Virus record (IMG/VR): IMGVR_UViG_3300019378_000003
Reading direction: 5' to 3' (one strand)
DNA: 40,640 bases
Origin: a virus
Lineage: Duplodnaviria; Heunggongvirae; Uroviricota; Caudoviricetes
A model generated the notes under the pieces. That model saw only the letters and a list, made by a program, of their open reading frames with translations, was not told where the DNA came from and ran no database searches. The position numbers were made by a program, and so were the translations under genes. Shown piece by piece: positions 4,154 through 11,502 of this stretch (positions within the stretch are counted from its first letter, which is position 1; each line of letters starts with the position of its first letter).

Positions 4154-4260
4154 AAGGGCCAGAAAAGATAAATATTTATCTGCTCACTAATTTATATTCA
4201 GCAGAATTTTTATAATCTTGACTTTAAATAAAACTGTATAAAATTTGCTGAATAGCCCTT
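4154..4260 (-). ncRNA. stem-CAGCAA element A
   Basis: AAGGGC-TATTCAGCAAAT...GCCCTT end pairing. Confidence 0.55.
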
Positions 4261-4291
4261 AGGTAGTATCCATTTTTGGGTGTTTAATTTC

Positions 4292-4375
4292 GTGAGCCTC
4301 CCAAATGGACTTACCTCTATATTTTCTTCGTAAACCAATAATACTATTATTTAAAAGATTGCTGTAATGGCTCAC
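4292..4375 (-). ncRNA. stem-CAGCAA element B
   Basis: GTGAGCC-ATTACAGCAATC...GGCTCAC end pairing. Confidence 0.6.
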
Positions 4376-4378
4376 ATA

Positions 4379-5311
4379 TTATTTATGAGTTTTATAAAAC
4401 ATTGATGGCATTTCTGGCAATATATCATCACTAATTCGTTTAATATAAGGCTGCAATGCAATATCAATTACATCATCATAATAATCTGGCTTTACCATAT
4501 ATTCACAAATATTGTGCATAATACGCCAAGGATTACTTCTTCCTGATACTTTAAATTGATTAAATCCTTTGGGTAAATAATCATTTAAGATTTGTTCTCT
4601 AGAAATATAAGATTTTAACTGTCGCGTATTATAACGCTATAAAGTACCTCTTTTTTCCAGCATAGAACATTCAGTTCTAGTACCAGTAGGATCCATTTCA
4701 ATTTGAGCTCTAGCTAAATCCCTATAATGAGAATAAATGCGAGGGCAATTATCTGGACAAGGATCATTACATAAAAATTCAATTTTATGTCGATGCTCCA
4801 TCGGAATAGTATCAAGATAATCCCAGTTGTTATTCATTTTTCGCCGCATAACAACTAATCCATAATGAGGATCGGTAGAATAGGGTTCTATATCTGTCCC
4901 TACAATAGAAGCACAATATTTATAATTAGGATATTTTTCTCGTAAATAATTTTCCAAAATACGAGAAGAAGTTAAAATTTCATTTTTACCATTATGACCC
5001 AATTCAGCAATTAAATTACCATATGTATCATTTAAATGCTTTTCTTGAATTAAAGGATTGGTAAAGGTAAAACGAATAGGAACTTCTAAAACATCATTGT
5101 ACCAATGAATTAATAATTCAATATCTTTTTTAAACCAATAAGGATAAAAATTAGTACTGCCACCATTCCAGATACAACCTGGAAAGCATCCAAAAATTGA
5201 TGCAATGTGTGTATCCTAATAAAAAATATCTGGATAGTCAATTCTTAAATCATAAACTGCTCCATAAATTAAACGTCCGTCCAGAAAATCTGGCATGTTC
5301 ATATTAATCAT
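4379..5311 (-). CDS. 310 aa conserved hypothetical protein with two in-frame TAG
   Basis: ATG 5311 overlaps the upstream TGA. One frame runs to TAA 4379, interrupted only by TAG at 5216-5218 and 4637-4639. Motifs IASIFGCFPGCIWNGG, IRFTFTNPL, CNDPCxxxCP. Confidence 0.85.
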
Positions 5312-5577
5312 TCAGAAAATTCCTCCTGCAGAGCCTCAGTCATGCTGGATACTTTTTTCTGTTCAGAAATTTTACGCTGACGAGGCGAGTTTGCGCCAAG
5401 ACCAGATTCTTTACCGCGGCAATCGGGACAAGAACAATGAATCTTATTCTTAGAATACTGGTGGAGATTGTCATACATATCCGGAGGACAAGCCTTTTCT
5501 CTATCAATGCGACGTTTGCGCAATGCCTTCAGCCAGTTCATCTTACGAGTAAATGCACGAGAACGATTCTTTTCCAT
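5308..5577 (-). CDS. hypothetical basic protein with HCSCPDC motif
   Basis: SD before ATG 5577; the longer track ORF start overlaps tRNA-Ser. Confidence 0.7.
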   Translation of the reverse strand: MEKNRSRAFTRKMNWLKALRKRRIDREKACPPDMYDNLHQYSKNKIHCSCPDCRGKESGLGANSPRQRKISEQKKVSSMTEALQEEFSE

Positions 5578-5603
5578 CGTATTCCTTCTTTCAAAATAAA
5601 ATA

Positions 5604-5695
5604 TGGCGGGAGGAGTGGGATTTGAACCCACGCGCCGGTGCTACCGACCTATCGGTTTTCAAGACCGAACCCTTCAGCCGCTTGGGTATCCTCCC
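5604..5695 (-). tRNA. trnS: tRNA-Ser(UGA)
   Basis: Cloverleaf, long variable arm, CCA. Confidence 0.95.
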
Positions 5696-5760
5696 AAAAT
5701 TTTCTAAGTCCCCTTTTGATTCCTCGTTGCCGCGCGGGCCTCCAAGGTCGGCATAAAAGC

Positions 5761-5874
5761 TAGACATATTAAAAAGTGAGATTCGAACTCACACCTTCAG
5801 AGTCAGAGTCTGATGCTCTATCCATTTGAGCTATTCAGGTTATACAACCTGCGTATATTTGCTGTTAATGTCTA
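5761..5874 (-). ncRNA. stem-CAGCAA element C enclosing tRNA-Gln(CUG)-like D, anticodon and T arms
   Basis: TAGACAT..ACAGCAA 5' end pairs with ATGTCTA. Inside: GCTC/GAGC D-arm, TCAGA-CTCTGAC-TCTGA, GTGAG-TTCGAAT-CTCAC. No normal acceptor stem or CCA. Confidence 0.7.
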
Positions 5875-5881
5875 AAAAAAG

Positions 5882-6031
5882 TGGAGCCGGCGGACGGACT
5901 TGAACCCCCGACCTGTCGCTTACTGGTCACCACGGTAGGACTTGCACCTACATTCCTTATCGGTCCTGCCTTACGATTCTACTTGAATTACGTGGTGAAG
6001 GCGACTGCTCTACCAACTGAGCTACACCGGC
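5882..6031 (-). tRNA. trnT: tRNA-Thr(UGU) interrupted by a 74-nt tRNA-like insert (5924-5997) between U34 and G35
   Basis: Removing 5924-5997 gives a 76-nt cloverleaf with anticodon arm GTCGC-CTTGTAA-GCGAC. Confidence 0.85.
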
Positions 6032-6316
6032 ACATCATATATCGAAACAGTACTTCAAATTCATTGCTCATTTGTTACTTGACGCTTAACTTCTGAGAGG
6101 GGTCAACGTCGCCACTCCAACTATCCTCGCTAGCCCTAGGAACCTGCAGCCCTCACAAGAGCAAGTCATTCTCCATAACTGCCTCGATATAAGTGCGAAA
6201 CCTCTAACCTAATCATATTACTTCGTGGTTTGTAATACTTTCTGCCAGAAATCTCATTACATTAACAATCTAAATATCAATATTAAACTCGGTAACTATT
6301 TCCCACTCTCCGAGTA

Positions 6317-6390
6317 TGGCTGGGGTAGTTGGGTTCGAACCAACGATGCGGGAGTCAAAGTCCCGTGCCTTACCGCTTGGCTATACCCCA
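6317..6390 (-). tRNA. trnQ: tRNA-Gln(UUG)
   Basis: Canonical cloverleaf, U1-A72, CCA. Confidence 0.95.
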
Positions 6391-6403
6391 TCATAAAATA
6401 AAC

Positions 6404-6522
6404 AAGACACTAAGCGTATGCTTATGCTCTACCATCTGAGCTATTCTTCCTGTTAGGCGGAAAAAATCGGAGTCGAACCGATGACACTAAGTTTTAAACT
6501 TAATATTTGCTGTATGTGTCTT
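6404..6522 (-). ncRNA. stem-CAGCAA element D with a circularly permuted tRNA module (YrlA/Y-RNA-like)
   Basis: Order: AAGACAC..ACAGCAA, T-arm ATCGG-TTCGACT-CCGAT, loop-closed acceptor TTTTTCC/GGAAGAA, TA, D-arm GCTC-AGATGGTA-GAGC, closing GTGTCTT. Confidence 0.75.
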
Positions 6523-6528
6523 TGAAAA

Positions 6529-6611
6529 TGGTGCCCAAAGTGGGACTTGAACCCACACTCTTTCGAACTTGATTTTGAGTCAAGCGCGTCTGCCGATTCC
6601 GCCATTCGGGC
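6529..6611 (-). tRNA. trnL: tRNA-Leu(CAA)
   Basis: Class II cloverleaf, CCA. Confidence 0.95.
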
Positions 6612-6673
6612 ATGGCGCCCAGAAGTTGCGTTCTGGGCATGTAAAATGTATCTCGTGGCAACCGTTTGGTTAC

Positions 6674-10042: not shown

Positions 10043-10206
10043 ATAAAATCACAACCACTCGCGTCCCACCAATCTGTTGACATTTGCATCGTGGTTCCTA
10101 ACGATATTACTATCTCCCACGCATTACCTCGTAAACACATATACGCCGATAATTTCTACAAAATATCTCACTTGCCAAAGCCTTGTCCGTTGTGATGAAT
10201 TTTTAC

Positions 10207-10284
10207 TGGTCGGGCAGGTTGGACTCGAACCAACGACTTCCACCTTATCAGAGTGGCGCTCTGAACCAACTGAACTACTGCCCG
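10207..10284 (-). tRNA. trnI: tRNA-Ile(GAU)
   Basis: Canonical cloverleaf. Confidence 0.95.
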
Positions 10285-10363
10285 ATATAACCCTTCTGTT
10301 TTCTCGCATAAGCGAAGGCTGAACTTTACCGGTTTAATGTCCTTTCAGGGATTAGGACGAATC

Positions 10364-10450
10364 TGGTGCCCAAGACGGGACTTGAACCCGTACGACCTCA
10401 TGGCCAGCGGATTTTAAGTCCGCTGCGTCTGCCAATTCCGCCACTCGGGC
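10364..10450 (-). tRNA. trnL: tRNA-Leu(UAA)
   Basis: Class II cloverleaf. Confidence 0.95.
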
Positions 10451-10462
10451 ACACCATGAACC

Positions 10463-10558
10463 AAGGCACTGGTTCTTTTGAGGGATTCGAACCACTCTAA
10501 AAATTTCTTCGCACAAAAATTTTATTATCCAACTTGAAAGTTGCTGTTGCAGTGCCTT
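10463..10558 (-). ncRNA. stem-CAGCAA element F with a T-loop hairpin
   Basis: AAGGCACT-GCAACAGCAAC...GGTTCGAATCC...AGTGCCTT; starts right after the promoter at 10561-10601. Confidence 0.65.
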
Positions 10559-10602
10559 TACCTTATGATATTATTATATCATAAATTTTTTAAAAAGTCA
10601 AT

Positions 10603-10694
10603 TGGCGGAGTCTCTGGGACTTGAACCCAGACACCGTATTACCGATTACTGCTCGCTTTCCAAGCGAGTGCCTTACCATTAGGCTTAAGACTCC
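10603..10694 (-). tRNA. trnS: tRNA-Ser(GGA)
   Basis: Class II cloverleaf. Confidence 0.95.
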
Positions 10695-10699
10695 ACATA

Positions 10700-10791
10700 T
10701 GGCGGGGAGTGAGGGACTTGAACCCTCGCACCGGAAGAACCGATCTACAAGATTAGCAATCTCGCCCCTTCACCAACTTGGGTAACTCCCC
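10700..10791 (-). tRNA. trnS: tRNA-Ser(GCU)
   Basis: Class II cloverleaf. Confidence 0.95.
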
Positions 10792-10868
10792 ATAGAGAGA
10801 GGGATGCCCCAGCCACCACACTGGGGCATCATTTAGAAAGGAAAACATCCACACCACATAGATGTTGT

Positions 10869-10944
10869 TGGTCACCTACCGGGGATTCGAACCCACGATT
10901 GCCAGCGTGAAAGGCTGGATTCCTAGCCATTAGAACAGTAGGCG
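10869..10944 (-). tRNA. trnE: tRNA-Glu(UUC)
   Basis: CCAGC-CTTTCAC-GCTGG. Confidence 0.9.
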
Positions 10945-11267
10945 ATATTAATGCCATTTTGCGCGCGTGGCAGGCTCACCACAGGCTTAGCGCCCATCCC
11001 CTGATGAATCATGGTCATCAGTACCACGGTAGTCTTTATTCTTTGTGCACTAACGGCAGCGAGTGAAGGTGCCTACCGACCAAGTTCTCTCTCCCCTACC
11101 CAATGATTTAAAGTCCTGTAGGTCGGGACTCCTGTTCCAGTGTCCACAATAACTTCATTATTAATCGCCATTAATTTCTAATATGGGAATAGAACAGGTA
11201 GCATATAGTAGTTTATCAATTAAAAATGTTAATGCGAGGTGAAAACTACTACTCAAAAAGACCTCAT

Positions 11268-11341
11268 TGCCCGTAGCTGGATTCGAACCAGCACCTGCTC
11301 CTTTCAAAGAGGAGCCGATCTACCATTAAACTACCCGGGGC
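11268..11341 (-). tRNA. degenerate tRNA-Gln(UUG)-like
   Basis: CTCCT-CTTTGAA-AGGAG and an intact T-arm; imperfect acceptor stem, no encoded CCA. Confidence 0.6.
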
Positions 11342-11344
11342 ATG

Positions 11345-11420
11345 TGGTGCCTATGGTTGGATTCGAACCAACTACCTACTGCGTATGAAGCAGTCGCACA
11401 TCCTAATGTGCTTCACAGGC
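11345..11420 (-). tRNA. tRNA-Met/Ile2(CAU)
   Basis: ACTGC-TTCATAC-GCAGT. Confidence 0.85.
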
Positions 11421-11426
11421 ATAATC

Positions 11427-11502
11427 AAGGCGGGTTAGAAAAGCTTTTATAATCCTAAATTATACGCAATGTTTCTTCCAAAAGGTTTGCTGGAACCGCC
11501 TT
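11427..11502 (-). ncRNA. stem-CAGCAA element G
   Basis: AAGGCGG-TTCCAGCAAACC...CCGCCTT. Confidence 0.55.

What the first reader, a model, noticed from the sequence alone, without database searches (positions are those of the whole stretch)
4154..11502. Seven stem-CAGCAA RNAs, one with YrlA (Y RNA) architecture, upstream of a TROVE-like DUF2828 gene: candidate phage Ro60/Y-RNA system
Seen: seven unrelated 74-119 nt segments (4154, 4292, 5761, 6404, 7663, 10463, 11427) each have a 6-8 bp stem joining their ends with different sequences, and all have CAGCAA 2-6 nt after the 5' strand. Copy D holds a permuted tRNA (T-arm, loop-closed acceptor, D-arm), copy C a normal-order D/anticodon/T module, copy F a T-loop. 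Known: bacterial YrlA Y RNAs have this permuted tRNA module on a Ro60-binding terminal stem and lie near Ro60/TROVE genes. Inference: the DUF2828 protein (1..489, same strand) binds these RNAs via the CAGCAA stem, each presenting a different cargo domain.
Basis: partly seen in the sequence, partly recalled or inferred. Interest (0 to 1): 0.9.

Follow-up and report, generated by a model that had tools for sequence, protein, structure and literature searches.

The report
Phage Y-like RNAs with CAGCAA handle
Seven small RNA genes scattered through this gut phage's tRNA island share one stem-plus-CAGCAA "handle" and carry different, partly tRNA-like, bodies; the same handle sits beside the gene for a Ro60-shaped protein in many unrelated phages, so they are most likely that protein's partner RNAs, an apparently undescribed cousin of the Ro60/Y-RNA particle.

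Summary
All seven minus-strand CAGCAA sites between 4000 and 12000 sit 3-4 nt behind the 5' strand of a 6-9 bp helix that closes a 74-119 nt segment; decoy 6-mers do so in about 22% of cases. The interiors are unrelated. Copy D is a permuted tRNA module, copy C a normal-order tRNA body, copy F has a T-arm.

The handle is a real, strand-specific family. In 80 related phage loci, 243 of 601 same-strand CAGCAA sites have a 7-bp or longer stem, against 27 of 582 on the other strand. 239 elements lie upstream of the DUF2828 gene and 6 downstream.

A covariance model hit 10 of 10 whole records of DUF2828-bearing phages from very different lineages, always on the gene's strand and often within 150 nt. 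It hit 0 of 4 tRNA-rich phages that lack the gene.

A close full-length homologue of the truncated window gene folds with high confidence into a Ro60 ring plus vWA domain (Z 20.4 to Xenopus Ro60). Pfam TROVE does not match.

Binding is inferred, not shown. The handle is absent from Rfam 15 and from the papers I could search, and it closely resembles Dictyostelium Class I RNAs. Earlier agents of this scan found the same family on other DNA many times. Verdict: new variant of the Ro60/Y-RNA kind.

The parts
4154..4260 (-). Copy A: handle RNA, 107 nt. 6-bp terminal helix AAGGGC/GCCCTT, 4 nt, CAGCAA; AT-rich hairpin cargo.
   Evidence: z -2.97; model R1 15.5 bits
4292..4375 (-). Copy B: handle RNA, 84 nt. 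7-bp helix GTGAGCC/GGCTCAC, ATTA, CAGCAA. Starts 4 nt after the stop of ORF 4379-5311.
   Evidence: R1 20.8 bits
5761..5874 (-). Copy C: handle RNA, 114 nt. 7-bp helix TAGACAT/ATGTCTA, TAA, CAGCAA, a hairpin, then a normal-order tRNA body (D arm, anticodon arm with loop CUCUGAC, T arm) without an acceptor stem.
   Evidence: (Rfam tRNA 52 bits, model 6-65/71); a relative, L002 5637-5750, has the same build
6404..6522 (-). Copy D: handle RNA, 119 nt. 7-bp helix AAGACAC/GTGTCTT, ATA, CAGCAA, a hairpin, then a permuted tRNA module (T arm, loop-closed acceptor-like hairpin, D arm): the YrlA-type member.
   Evidence: YrlA 32.7 bits, full model; z -5.95; homologous element with the same helix in Bacillus phage Tsamsa, L001 13239-13361; spanned by an RNA-library contig (record 18)
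7662..7737 (-). Copy E: handle RNA, 76 nt. 7-8 bp helix (C)AAGGCTC/GAGCCTT(G), CTTA, CAGCAA. Its 11-mer CCTTACAGCAA equals the published Dictyostelium Class I motif.
   Evidence: (R1 31 bits, E 1e-4)
10463..10558 (-). Copy F: handle RNA, 96 nt. 9-bp helix AAGGCACTG/CAGTGCCTT, CAA, CAGCAA, two hairpins and a T-arm-like hairpin.
   Evidence: 22.5 bits; z -2.33; spanned by an RNA-library contig (record 24)
11427..11502 (-). Copy G: handle RNA, 76 nt. 7-bp helix AAGGCGG/CCGCCTT, TTC, CAGCAA, two hairpins.
   Evidence: (R1 32.6 bits, E 4.5e-5)
1..489 (-). First 163 codons of the DUF2828 (Ro60-fold) gene; it runs off the window. The putative protein partner.
   Evidence: Pfam DUF2828 E 1.8e-9; 80% identical to the N-terminus of full-length P0001, which folds like Ro60
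5604..13327 (-). tRNA array (32 ARAGORN genes plus extra Rfam hits) in which copies C-G are embedded. Copies A and B lie just downstream of it.
7033..7362 (-). ORF with a cREC_REC domain (cyclic-phosphate-processing receiver) inside the array: RNA-repair context.
   Evidence: Pfam PF20274 E 1.3e-18; described in PMC7824862
2607..3179 (-). PhoH-like ATPase gene between the RNAs and the DUF2828 gene. The same neighbour (PhoH, tRNA array, DUF2828) is seen in Bacillus phage Tsamsa.

Best explanation
The seven segments are genes for small non-coding RNAs of one family, defined by a shared handle. The handle is a 6-9 bp helix that pairs the two ends of the RNA (covarying consensus AAGRCNC/GNGYCTT), then 3-4 nt and an invariant CAGCAA on the 5' side (unpaired in six of the seven predicted folds), and a G right after the 3' strand. 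Between the two halves of the handle each RNA carries a different body: a permuted tRNA module (D), a tRNA body without an acceptor stem (C), a T-arm hairpin (F) or plain hairpins (A, B, E, G).

Shown: the family is real, strand-specific and genetically tied to the DUF2828 gene across very distant phages, and the DUF2828 protein has the Ro60 fold (helical-repeat ring plus vWA domain with a complete MIDAS motif).

Inferred: the RNAs are transcribed with the tRNA array and trimmed out of it. The Ro60-like ring binds the handle, as Ro60 binds the terminal stem and CGAA-bearing loop of Y RNAs. The variable bodies then tether or gate other factors, such as tRNA-recognising enzymes, exonucleases, or RNA-repair enzymes like RtcB, RNA ligase and cREC, which are encoded nearby in several of these phages. 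The particle probably serves tRNA/RNA quality control or counter-defence during infection.
For: Window:
- 7 of 7 minus-strand CAGCAA sites in 4000-12000 have the helix, against a 22% decoy rate.
- All seven minimum-energy folds keep the terminal helix and six of them leave CAGCAA unpaired.

Family:
- In 80 loci of related phages, 243/601 same-strand sites have a 7-bp or longer stem against 27/582 on the opposite strand (Fisher p 5e-54). 239 lie upstream and 6 downstream of the gene. 50 of 55 loci with at least 8 kb of upstream sequence have at least one element, median 4.
- All 7 helix pairs show changes on both sides; 93.7% of cells are paired against 30-50% when the partner is slid.

Linkage across lineages, by model R1 on whole records:
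- Tsamsa, Faith1, A511, Felix-O1-like GEC_vB_B1, KVP40, Campylobacter CPX, Sinorhizobium phiM12, Aeromonas Aeh1, Enterococcus EFDG1 and Staphylococcus BE02 all have hits with E < 0.01 on the gene's strand.
- In Faith1, A511, CPX, EFDG1 and BE02 the hits lie within about 150 nt of the gene.
- T4, T5, SPO1 and Bxz1, which has a canonical Ro60, have no DUF2828 and no hit with E < 0.5.

Motif-first scan: handle matches that have a stem lie in tRNA-rich loci, and 5 of 5 whole contigs checked encode DUF2828.

Protein:
- AlphaFold model pLDDT 93, pTM 0.92.
- The top 13 PDB matches are all Ro60, full length.
- VIA Z 20.4 to 1yvr and 15.1 to phage phiLo Ro60, while unrelated vWA-only matches reach about 10.
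- Swiss-Prot matches are Ro60, then other TROVE proteins.
- MIDAS residues D299, S301, S303, T364 and D396 are invariant.

Analogy:
- Y RNAs have a 5'-3' stem flanking a loop with GNCGAA/CGAA (PMC4201824; PMC12135203).
- One member per phage is often YrlA-like.
- Bas63 gp130, a Felix-O1-type homologue, is reported as Ro60-like and needed against the Ppl defence (PMC11482910).

RNA-library contigs of a close relative span copies D and F whole. This is weak evidence, since contigs show no ends or strand.
Against: - No binding experiment exists, and none of the tools models protein-RNA contacts.
- At sequence level the protein is not TROVE: Pfam gives DUF2828 plus DUF7788 only, and PDB sequence searches give no significant Ro60 hit.
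- The handle motif differs from the Ro60-binding GNCGAA motif.
- The fold was predicted for a homologue from locus L002, because the window holds only 163 codons of the gene.
- In this window the nearest RNA is 3.7 kb from the gene, with seven ORFs between.
- Elements were collected by requiring a perfect stem, so the covariation counts are inflated by selection. The strand asymmetry and the decoy control are the unbiased tests.
- Model R1 scores the long-bodied copies weakly (A 15.5 bits, C 11.4 bits).
- 5 of 55 related loci show no element with my criteria.
- In Dictyostelium, the one Class I RNA partner shown to bind directly is an RRM protein (Rnp1A/CIBP), so a handle reader other than DUF2828 is conceivable.
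Confidence: 0.7

Rival explanations
1. The RNAs are a real family linked to DUF2828, but the handle is read by another protein: a host or phage RNA-binding protein such as an RRM protein, an RNA-repair enzyme or a tRNA-processing enzyme. The Ro60-like ring then acts in the same pathway, for instance on the variable bodies or on damaged tRNAs, without holding the handle.
For: The one directly binding partner reported for the look-alike Dictyostelium Class I RNAs is the RRM protein Rnp1A/CIBP (PMC7919456). RNA-repair genes travel with the locus: cREC here, and RtcB, RNA ligase and phosphoesterases in A511. Ro60 also binds misfolded RNA ends in its central hole.
Against: DUF2828 is the only gene I checked across all ten phage records, and it was present with the RNA in every one. 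The genes around it were listed in only four of them, and they differ from phage to phage. Adjacency within 150 nt in five lineages is typical of RNA-protein partners such as rsr-yrlA.
Confidence: 0.17
2. The stem-CAGCAA units are processing or punctuation signals of the tRNA operon, or decoy substrates for host nucleases, rather than stable partner RNAs of a particle.
For: In this window five of seven lie between tRNA genes on the same strand. The 7-bp terminal helix followed by a single conserved base recalls an acceptor stem with its discriminator base. Several bodies mimic tRNA.
Against: In Faith1, A511, CPX, EFDG1 and BE02 the elements flank the DUF2828 gene, not tRNA genes. tRNA-rich T4, T5, SPO1 and Bxz1 lack them. 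An invariant unpaired hexamer with swappable bodies is what a protein-binding handle looks like. Canonical Y RNAs are also tRNA mimics.
Confidence: 0.1
3. Chance hairpins, decayed tRNA genes, or miniature mobile elements with terminal inverted repeats.
For: Short stems near a 6-mer are common by chance, 22% per site. The region is full of tRNA-derived sequence.
Against: 7 of 7 in the window. Strand bias p 5e-54 in relatives. The helix sequence covaries instead of being a fixed inverted repeat. The same handle occurs in phages of Actinomycetota, Bacillota, Pseudomonadota and Campylobacterota. No transposase is linked.
Confidence: 0.03

Closest known systems
Ro60 (Rsr, TROVE) with Y RNAs: Salmonella YrlA/YrlB, D. 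radiodurans Yrn1, mycobacteriophage ET08-type YrlA (Chen et al. 2014, PMC4201824; Rfam RF02553), and Thermus phage phiLo Ro60 with Yrl1/Yrl2 (PMC12135203; PDB 9KOP, 9L5Y)
   Same: - A ring-shaped helical-repeat plus vWA protein is encoded beside several small RNAs.
- The ends of each RNA pair into a stem that flanks a loop with a short conserved motif.
- One RNA carries a permuted tRNA module (T arm, closed acceptor, D arm) and the others are simpler.
- The neighbourhood is RNA repair.
   Different: - The protein belongs to Pfam DUF2828/DUF7788, not TROVE (10-16% identity to Ro60 in structural alignments).
- The motif is CAGCAA, not GNCGAA/CGAA.
- Copy D reaches only 32.7 of the 69 bits needed for RF02553.
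- Up to seven or more RNAs per phage, many embedded in a tRNA array kilobases from the gene.
- Binding is untested.
Bas63 (Felix-O1-like coliphage) gp130, reported as Ro60-like by structure and as a counter to the Ppl defence (PhageMaP preprint, PMC11482910)
   Same: By its description it is the same kind of protein as the vWFA/DUF2828 genes of Felix-O1-like phages, placed directly upstream of a tRNA stretch. The authors suggested that Y RNAs hide among the tRNA genes.
   Different: No RNA was identified there. Here four handle RNAs are located just downstream of the gene in a Felix-O1-like Salmonella phage (L084 21713-22546), and they are not tRNA genes. I did not align Bas63 itself.
Class I RNAs of Dictyostelia (Aspegren 2004; Kjellin 2021, PMC7919456; search pattern GTTGRCCTTACAGCAA ... 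GTCAACTG in PMC5054030)
   Same: A short covarying stem joins the two ends. A conserved 11-nt motif ending in CAGCAA sits directly after the 5' strand and is predicted unpaired. The rest is variable. There are many paralogous copies per genome. Copy E carries the identical 11-mer.
   Different: They are eukaryotic and have their own upstream promoter element. They are 42-65 nt long with an invariant 5' G. They were reported as unique to dictyostelids, and an RRM protein is the known binder. Whether dictyostelids encode a DUF2828 protein was not tested here.

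Membership tests
YrlA-type Y RNA (Rfam RF02553) | Score at or above Rfam's gathering threshold (69 bits) | tested here: not met
   Copy D 32.7 bits, E 4.8e-4, full model 1-114. The other six copies have no hit. Other YrlA hits in the region are tandem-tRNA artefacts.
YrlA-type Y RNA (Rfam RF02553) | Permuted tRNA-like module: T arm, loop-closed acceptor-like stem, D arm | tested here: met
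   Met for copy D only. The same build is found in Tsamsa L001 13239-13361, Faith1 L082 4536-4657 and 24 or more elements of related loci.
YrlA-type Y RNA (Rfam RF02553) | GNCGAA(N)G / CGAA motif near the 5' end (putative Ro60 contact) | tested here: not met
   All copies have CAGCAA instead. Motif definitions come from PMC4201824 and PMC12135203.
YrlA-type Y RNA (Rfam RF02553) | Bound by Ro60/Rsr | not testable with these tools
   No protein-RNA tool or experiment is available.
Ro60 / TROVE protein (Pfam PF05731) | Match to the TROVE profile | tested here: not met
   Pfam at E up to 1 lists only DUF2828, DUF7788 and weak VWA for P0001, Faith1 gp55 and Tsamsa gp247. PDB sequence searches give Ro60 only at E 1.7.
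Ro60 / TROVE protein (Pfam PF05731) | Fold: helical-repeat ring closed by a C-terminal vWA domain with MIDAS | tested here: met
   The model is of homologue P0001: pLDDT 93. Foldseek's top 13 matches are all Ro60, E 2.5e-7 to 7e-5. VIA Z 20.4, 415 residues, 4.0 A to 1yvr. DxSxS...T...D is invariant. The window itself holds only residues 1-163.
Dictyostelid Class I RNA | Short stem joining the 5' and 3' ends, structure kept but sequence free | tested here: met
   6-9 bp in all seven copies; covariation in the family.
Dictyostelid Class I RNA | 11-nt motif next to the 5' strand with T3, C6, C9, A10, A11 nearly invariant | tested here: inconclusive
   C6, C9, A10 and A11 are present in 7 of 7 copies and T3 in 4 of 7. 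Copy E is identical to CCTTACAGCAA.
Dictyostelid Class I RNA | Length 42-65 nt, invariant 5' G, upstream DUSE promoter, dictyostelid genome | tested here: not met
   Window copies are 74-119 nt and their helices start with A (5 copies), G (1) or T (1). They lie in a phage tRNA operon. Relatives do include 50-70 nt members.
CAGCAA-handle RNA beside DUF2828 (the family as defined by this analysis) | Terminal 6-9 bp helix, 2-4 nt, CAGCAA, G after the 3' strand, same strand as a DUF2828 gene in the same phage | tested here: met
   All seven copies. Model R1 recovers all seven: G, E, D, F and B at E 0.026 or better, A at 0.43 and C at 4. The DUF2828 gene lies on the same strand at 1-489.

The most novel reading that the evidence does not exclude
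The CAGCAA handle and DUF2828 protein form an ancient ribonucleoprotein class, parallel to Ro60/Y RNA, that spans phages of at least four bacterial phyla and reaches eukaryotes. On this reading the orphan Class I RNAs of Dictyostelium are its eukaryotic members, with a DUF2828-type protein as their missing core partner. In phages the swappable tRNA-like bodies would make the particle a programmable adaptor used against tRNA-targeting or other host defences.
Probability: 0.3. Interest if true: 0.9.

Novelty: new variant of a known kind. Interest (0 to 1): 0.8.

Why it matters
Ro60/Y-RNA particles are known from animals, about 5% of bacteria and a few phages. DUF2828 genes occur in 711 of 50,697 deposited phage records, including well-studied model and therapy-related phages such as Felix O1 relatives, Listeria A511/P100 types, KVP40 and cluster L mycobacteriophages. 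They are still labelled as of unknown function or simply as RNA-binding.

Naming the partner RNAs makes that protein's biology directly testable in culturable systems. It explains many unannotated gaps in phage tRNA islands. It gives a concrete handle for the reported anti-defence role of the Felix-O1-type protein. It also offers the first outside relative for the Dictyostelium Class I RNAs, whose mechanism has been open for twenty years.

Tried and rejected
- Whole-genome search of the window's own genome: none is held.
- Near-identity DNA search in deposited phages found only tRNA matches.
- Single-sequence fold of the protein was useless, pLDDT 37. It was replaced by the alignment-based model.
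- Sequence searches against PDB gave no significant Ro60 hit.
- The Sim et al. 2020 review is not held, and the supplement of Chen et al. 2014 is not held. I could therefore not see their phage list.
- One-mismatch variants of CAGCAA with stems in the window gave only noise and no further convincing copies. The minus-strand CAGCAA sites at 12916 and 13415 have no proper helix.
- AlphaFold-DB clusters and the ESM Atlas gave DUF2828/DUF7788 clusters, but organism names were withheld or viral. They could not tell whether dictyostelids encode the protein.
- A scan of prokaryote genome contigs returned 29 MAG contigs, several of 140-176 kb. They look like the same phage clade binned into Bacillota and other gut MAGs, so they are not independent cellular evidence. 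16 of 29 have a same-strand element.
- Sequencing runs:
  - Only contigs, not raw reads, were available. Two gut metatranscriptome runs hold 11-13% of the sampled words.
  - No RNA-library contig lay on 4100-5354, which holds copies A and B.
  - Contigs cannot show ends, strand or level, so discrete transcripts remain untested.
- The alignment A1 was too diverse for the search for related loci.

Full report
**Setting**

The window is part of a large tailed phage from animal-gut metagenomes. Feces and gut DNA runs hold up to 96% of the sampled words. The closest relatives are 140-200 kb IMG/VR contigs and MAG contigs labelled mostly Bacillota.

The first 14 kb are transcribed on the minus strand. 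In that direction they hold:
- an array of 32 or more tRNA genes at 5604-13327, with small ORFs in it: a cREC_REC protein at 7033-7362 and a PD-(D/E)XK protein at 9552-9962;
- a ClpP-like gene at 3447-4109, a PhoH-like gene at 2607-3179 and five unassigned ORFs;
- the first 163 codons of a DUF2828 gene at 489-1, which runs off the window.

**The observation**

Reading the minus strand and a mechanical scan confirm seven segments: 4154-4260, 4292-4375, 5761-5874, 6404-6522, 7662-7737, 10463-10558 and 11427-11502.
- Each is closed by a perfect 6-9 bp helix, and CAGCAA lies 3-4 nt after the 5' strand.
- These are all seven minus-strand CAGCAA sites between 4000 and 12000.
- With 150 decoy hexamers the same scan finds a 6-bp or longer stem at 22.5% of sites and a 7-bp or longer stem at 7.9%. 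Seven of seven is not chance.
- CAGCAA itself is not enriched in the window.
- The helices are not fully unrelated. They follow AAGRCNC/GNGYCTT with compensatory changes, and a G follows the 3' strand.
- All seven minimum-energy folds keep the terminal helix.

The bodies differ between copies:
- Copy D has the order T arm, loop-closed acceptor-like hairpin, D arm. It is the best match to Rfam YrlA in the region and covers the full model, but at 32.7 bits it is under the threshold of 69. Its fold has z = -5.95.
- Copy C holds a normal-order tRNA body without an acceptor stem (Rfam tRNA 52 bits, model 6-65), with anticodon loop CUCUGAC.
- Copy F has a T-arm-like hairpin.
- Copies A, B, E and G have plain hairpins.

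**A family, not a local oddity**

The N-terminal DUF2828 fragment retrieved 80 related viral loci, oriented with the gene on the plus strand.
- 243 of 601 plus-strand CAGCAA sites carry a 7-bp or longer helix at 2-5 nt, against 27 of 582 on the minus strand (Fisher p 5e-54).
- 239 elements lie upstream of the gene and 6 downstream, that is 0.37 against 0.009 per kb.
- 50 of 55 loci with at least 8 kb of upstream sequence have at least one element, median four.
- Profiles of 220 distinct elements show the conserved positions: A, G, R, C at the start of the helix; W-W-A before CAGCAA; an A/U-rich stretch after it; G after the 3' strand in 85%.
- On an alignment of 34 short members, all seven helix pairs show double changes. 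93.7% of cells pair, against 30-50% when the partner column is slid.
- Those members were picked for having a stem, so this count is inflated. The strand asymmetry and the decoy control are the unbiased tests.
- About a third of members carry a T-arm. At least 24 have the permuted YrlA-like order and a few the normal tRNA order.

**Linkage to DUF2828 across distant phages**

tblastn finds the protein in 711 of 50,697 deposited phage records. These include Felix-O1-like coliphages and Salmonella phages, cluster L mycobacteriophages, Listeria, Staphylococcus, Enterococcus, Bacillus, Vibrio, Aeromonas, Campylobacter, Sinorhizobium and others.

Inspection showed the same handle next to the gene:
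- three elements directly downstream in mycobacteriophage Faith1, the middle one YrlA-like;
- three directly upstream in Listeria phage A511;
- four just downstream in a Felix-O1-like Salmonella phage;
- at least three in Bacillus phage Tsamsa, one of them a clear homologue of copy D with the same helix.

A covariance model (R1) built from short members was run over whole records.
- All ten DUF2828-bearing phages tested have hits with E < 0.01 on the strand of the gene. In five of them the hits lie within about 150 nt of it.
- In a control chosen before I knew the protein result, T4, T5, SPO1 and Bxz1 had neither the protein nor a hit with E < 0.5. KVP40 had both.
- Bxz1-type phages carry a canonical Ro60 with a GNCGAA-type YrlA (Chen et al. 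2014). The handle therefore seems to go with the protein family.

Going the other way, an exact-pattern scan for one common handle variant gave 83 matches in viral contigs.
- The 27 matches with a complete helix lie in tRNA-rich loci: 1.36 tRNAs per kb, against 0.19 for stemless matches.
- DUF2828 lies inside the short locus in 9 of 25 such loci, against 2 of 56 for stemless matches.
- All five whole contigs then checked encode the protein.

**The protein**

The window's gene is truncated, so I used the full-length homologue of locus L002 (P0001, 504 aa, 80% identical over the shared N-terminus).
- Pfam gives DUF2828 plus DUF7788, a vWA-like domain, and no TROVE. The mycobacteriophage protein annotated as Ro-like has the same two domains.
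- With an alignment of 118 diverse homologues, AlphaFold2 gave pLDDT 93 and pTM 0.92.
- Foldseek's best 13 PDB matches are all Ro60: Xenopus, human, D. radiodurans and Thermus phage phiLo, over the full length.
- VIA-align gives Z 20.4 (415 residues, 4.0 A) to Xenopus Ro60 and 15.1 to phiLo Ro60. vWA-only matches stop near 10.
- In Swiss-Prot models the order is Ro60, then telomerase p80 and TEP1, the other TROVE proteins.
- The MIDAS residues are invariant.

Sequence-level membership in TROVE is not.

**What it most likely does**

The anatomy matches Y RNAs: a 5'-3' stem flanking a loop with a short conserved motif, variable modules, one member that mimics tRNA, and a gene beside a Ro60-type ring protein. 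The likeliest mechanism is that the ring protein binds the handle and the bodies tether or gate other factors.

The context points to RNA repair or counter-defence:
- a cREC gene lies in this array;
- RtcB, an RNA ligase and phosphoesterases lie next to the gene in A511;
- RNA ligase and polynucleotide kinase occur in cluster L phages;
- the Felix-O1-type homologue gp130 is reported as needed against the Ppl defence.

All of this is inference. Binding, RNA ends and function are untested. RNA-library contigs from two gut metatranscriptomes span copies D and F of a close relative, which is compatible with transcription but proves little.

**Comparison with what is known**

- Rfam 15 has no family for the handle: nothing but sub-threshold YrlA on copy D, and tRNA on copy C.
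- Full-text searches found no paper linking CAGCAA to phage or Y RNAs.
- Prior art exists for the protein side: the Ro-like annotation of mycobacteriophage homologues, and the PhageMaP preprint's guess that some tRNA genes next to gp130 are Y RNAs.
- A lead from earlier notes of this scan checked out in the literature. Dictyostelium Class I RNAs are defined by a 6-bp terminal stem and an 11-nt motif after its 5' strand, with T3, C6, C9, A10 and A11 invariant (PMC7919456). A published search pattern spells it GTTGRCCTTACAGCAA ... GTCAACTG (PMC5054030). Copy E carries that exact 11-mer. I could not test whether dictyostelids encode DUF2828.

**Earlier notes of this scan**

The same family was reported by other agents on other DNA in well over a hundred genomes. 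My tests were made independently on this window and agree with them.

**Verdict**

This is best classed as a new variant of the Ro60/Y-RNA kind.
- About 0.9 confidence that this is a real RNA family genetically coupled to DUF2828.
- About 0.7 confidence that the protein binds the handle directly.

Noticed in passing
window 7790-7882 (-) and 4379-5311 (-): The array holds a 93-nt tRNA with anticodon CUA, a TAG suppressor with a long variable arm. The ORF 4379-5311 is open (310 aa) only if its two in-frame TAG codons are read through. This suggests TAG recoding in at least part of this phage. The ORF has no Pfam match.
   Followed up: partly
window 5884-6031 (-): A tRNA-like gene with acceptor, D and T arms and an encoded CCA, but with an insertion of about 75 nt in the anticodon loop that extends the anticodon stem. 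ARAGORN misses it and Rfam tRNA gives 27 bits. It could be an intron-bearing tRNA or another tRNA-derived scaffold.
   Followed up: partly
window 6040-6316 (-): About 270 nt of non-coding sequence between that gene and tRNA-Gln. It has no Rfam match and is spanned by a metatranscriptome contig of a close relative. It may be another structured RNA.
   Followed up: no
window 5761-5874 (-); L002 5637-5750: Copy C and its counterpart in a related phage are both tRNA bodies with glutamine anticodons (CUG here, UUG there) mounted on the handle in place of an acceptor stem. A particular tRNA identity therefore seems to be conserved as cargo.
   Followed up: partly
window 7033-7362 (-) and 9552-9962 (-): A cREC_REC (cyclic-phosphate-processing receiver) ORF and a PD-(D/E)XK nuclease ORF sit inside the tRNA array. 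The first fits an RNA-repair theme; the second may be a homing-type nuclease.
   Followed up: no
window 12332-12403 (-), 30598-30739 (-): Rfam finds a tRNA at 12332-12403 that ARAGORN did not list, and two borderline tRNA hits (30-31 bits) far from the array, near 30.6 kb.
   Followed up: no
L057/L059/L061 9809-9943 (+): In several related phages one handle RNA encloses what looks like a circularly permuted tRNA: an anticodon-arm-like hairpin, the T arm and the 3' acceptor strand with CCA, then a short loop, then the 5' acceptor strand and a D arm.
   Followed up: no
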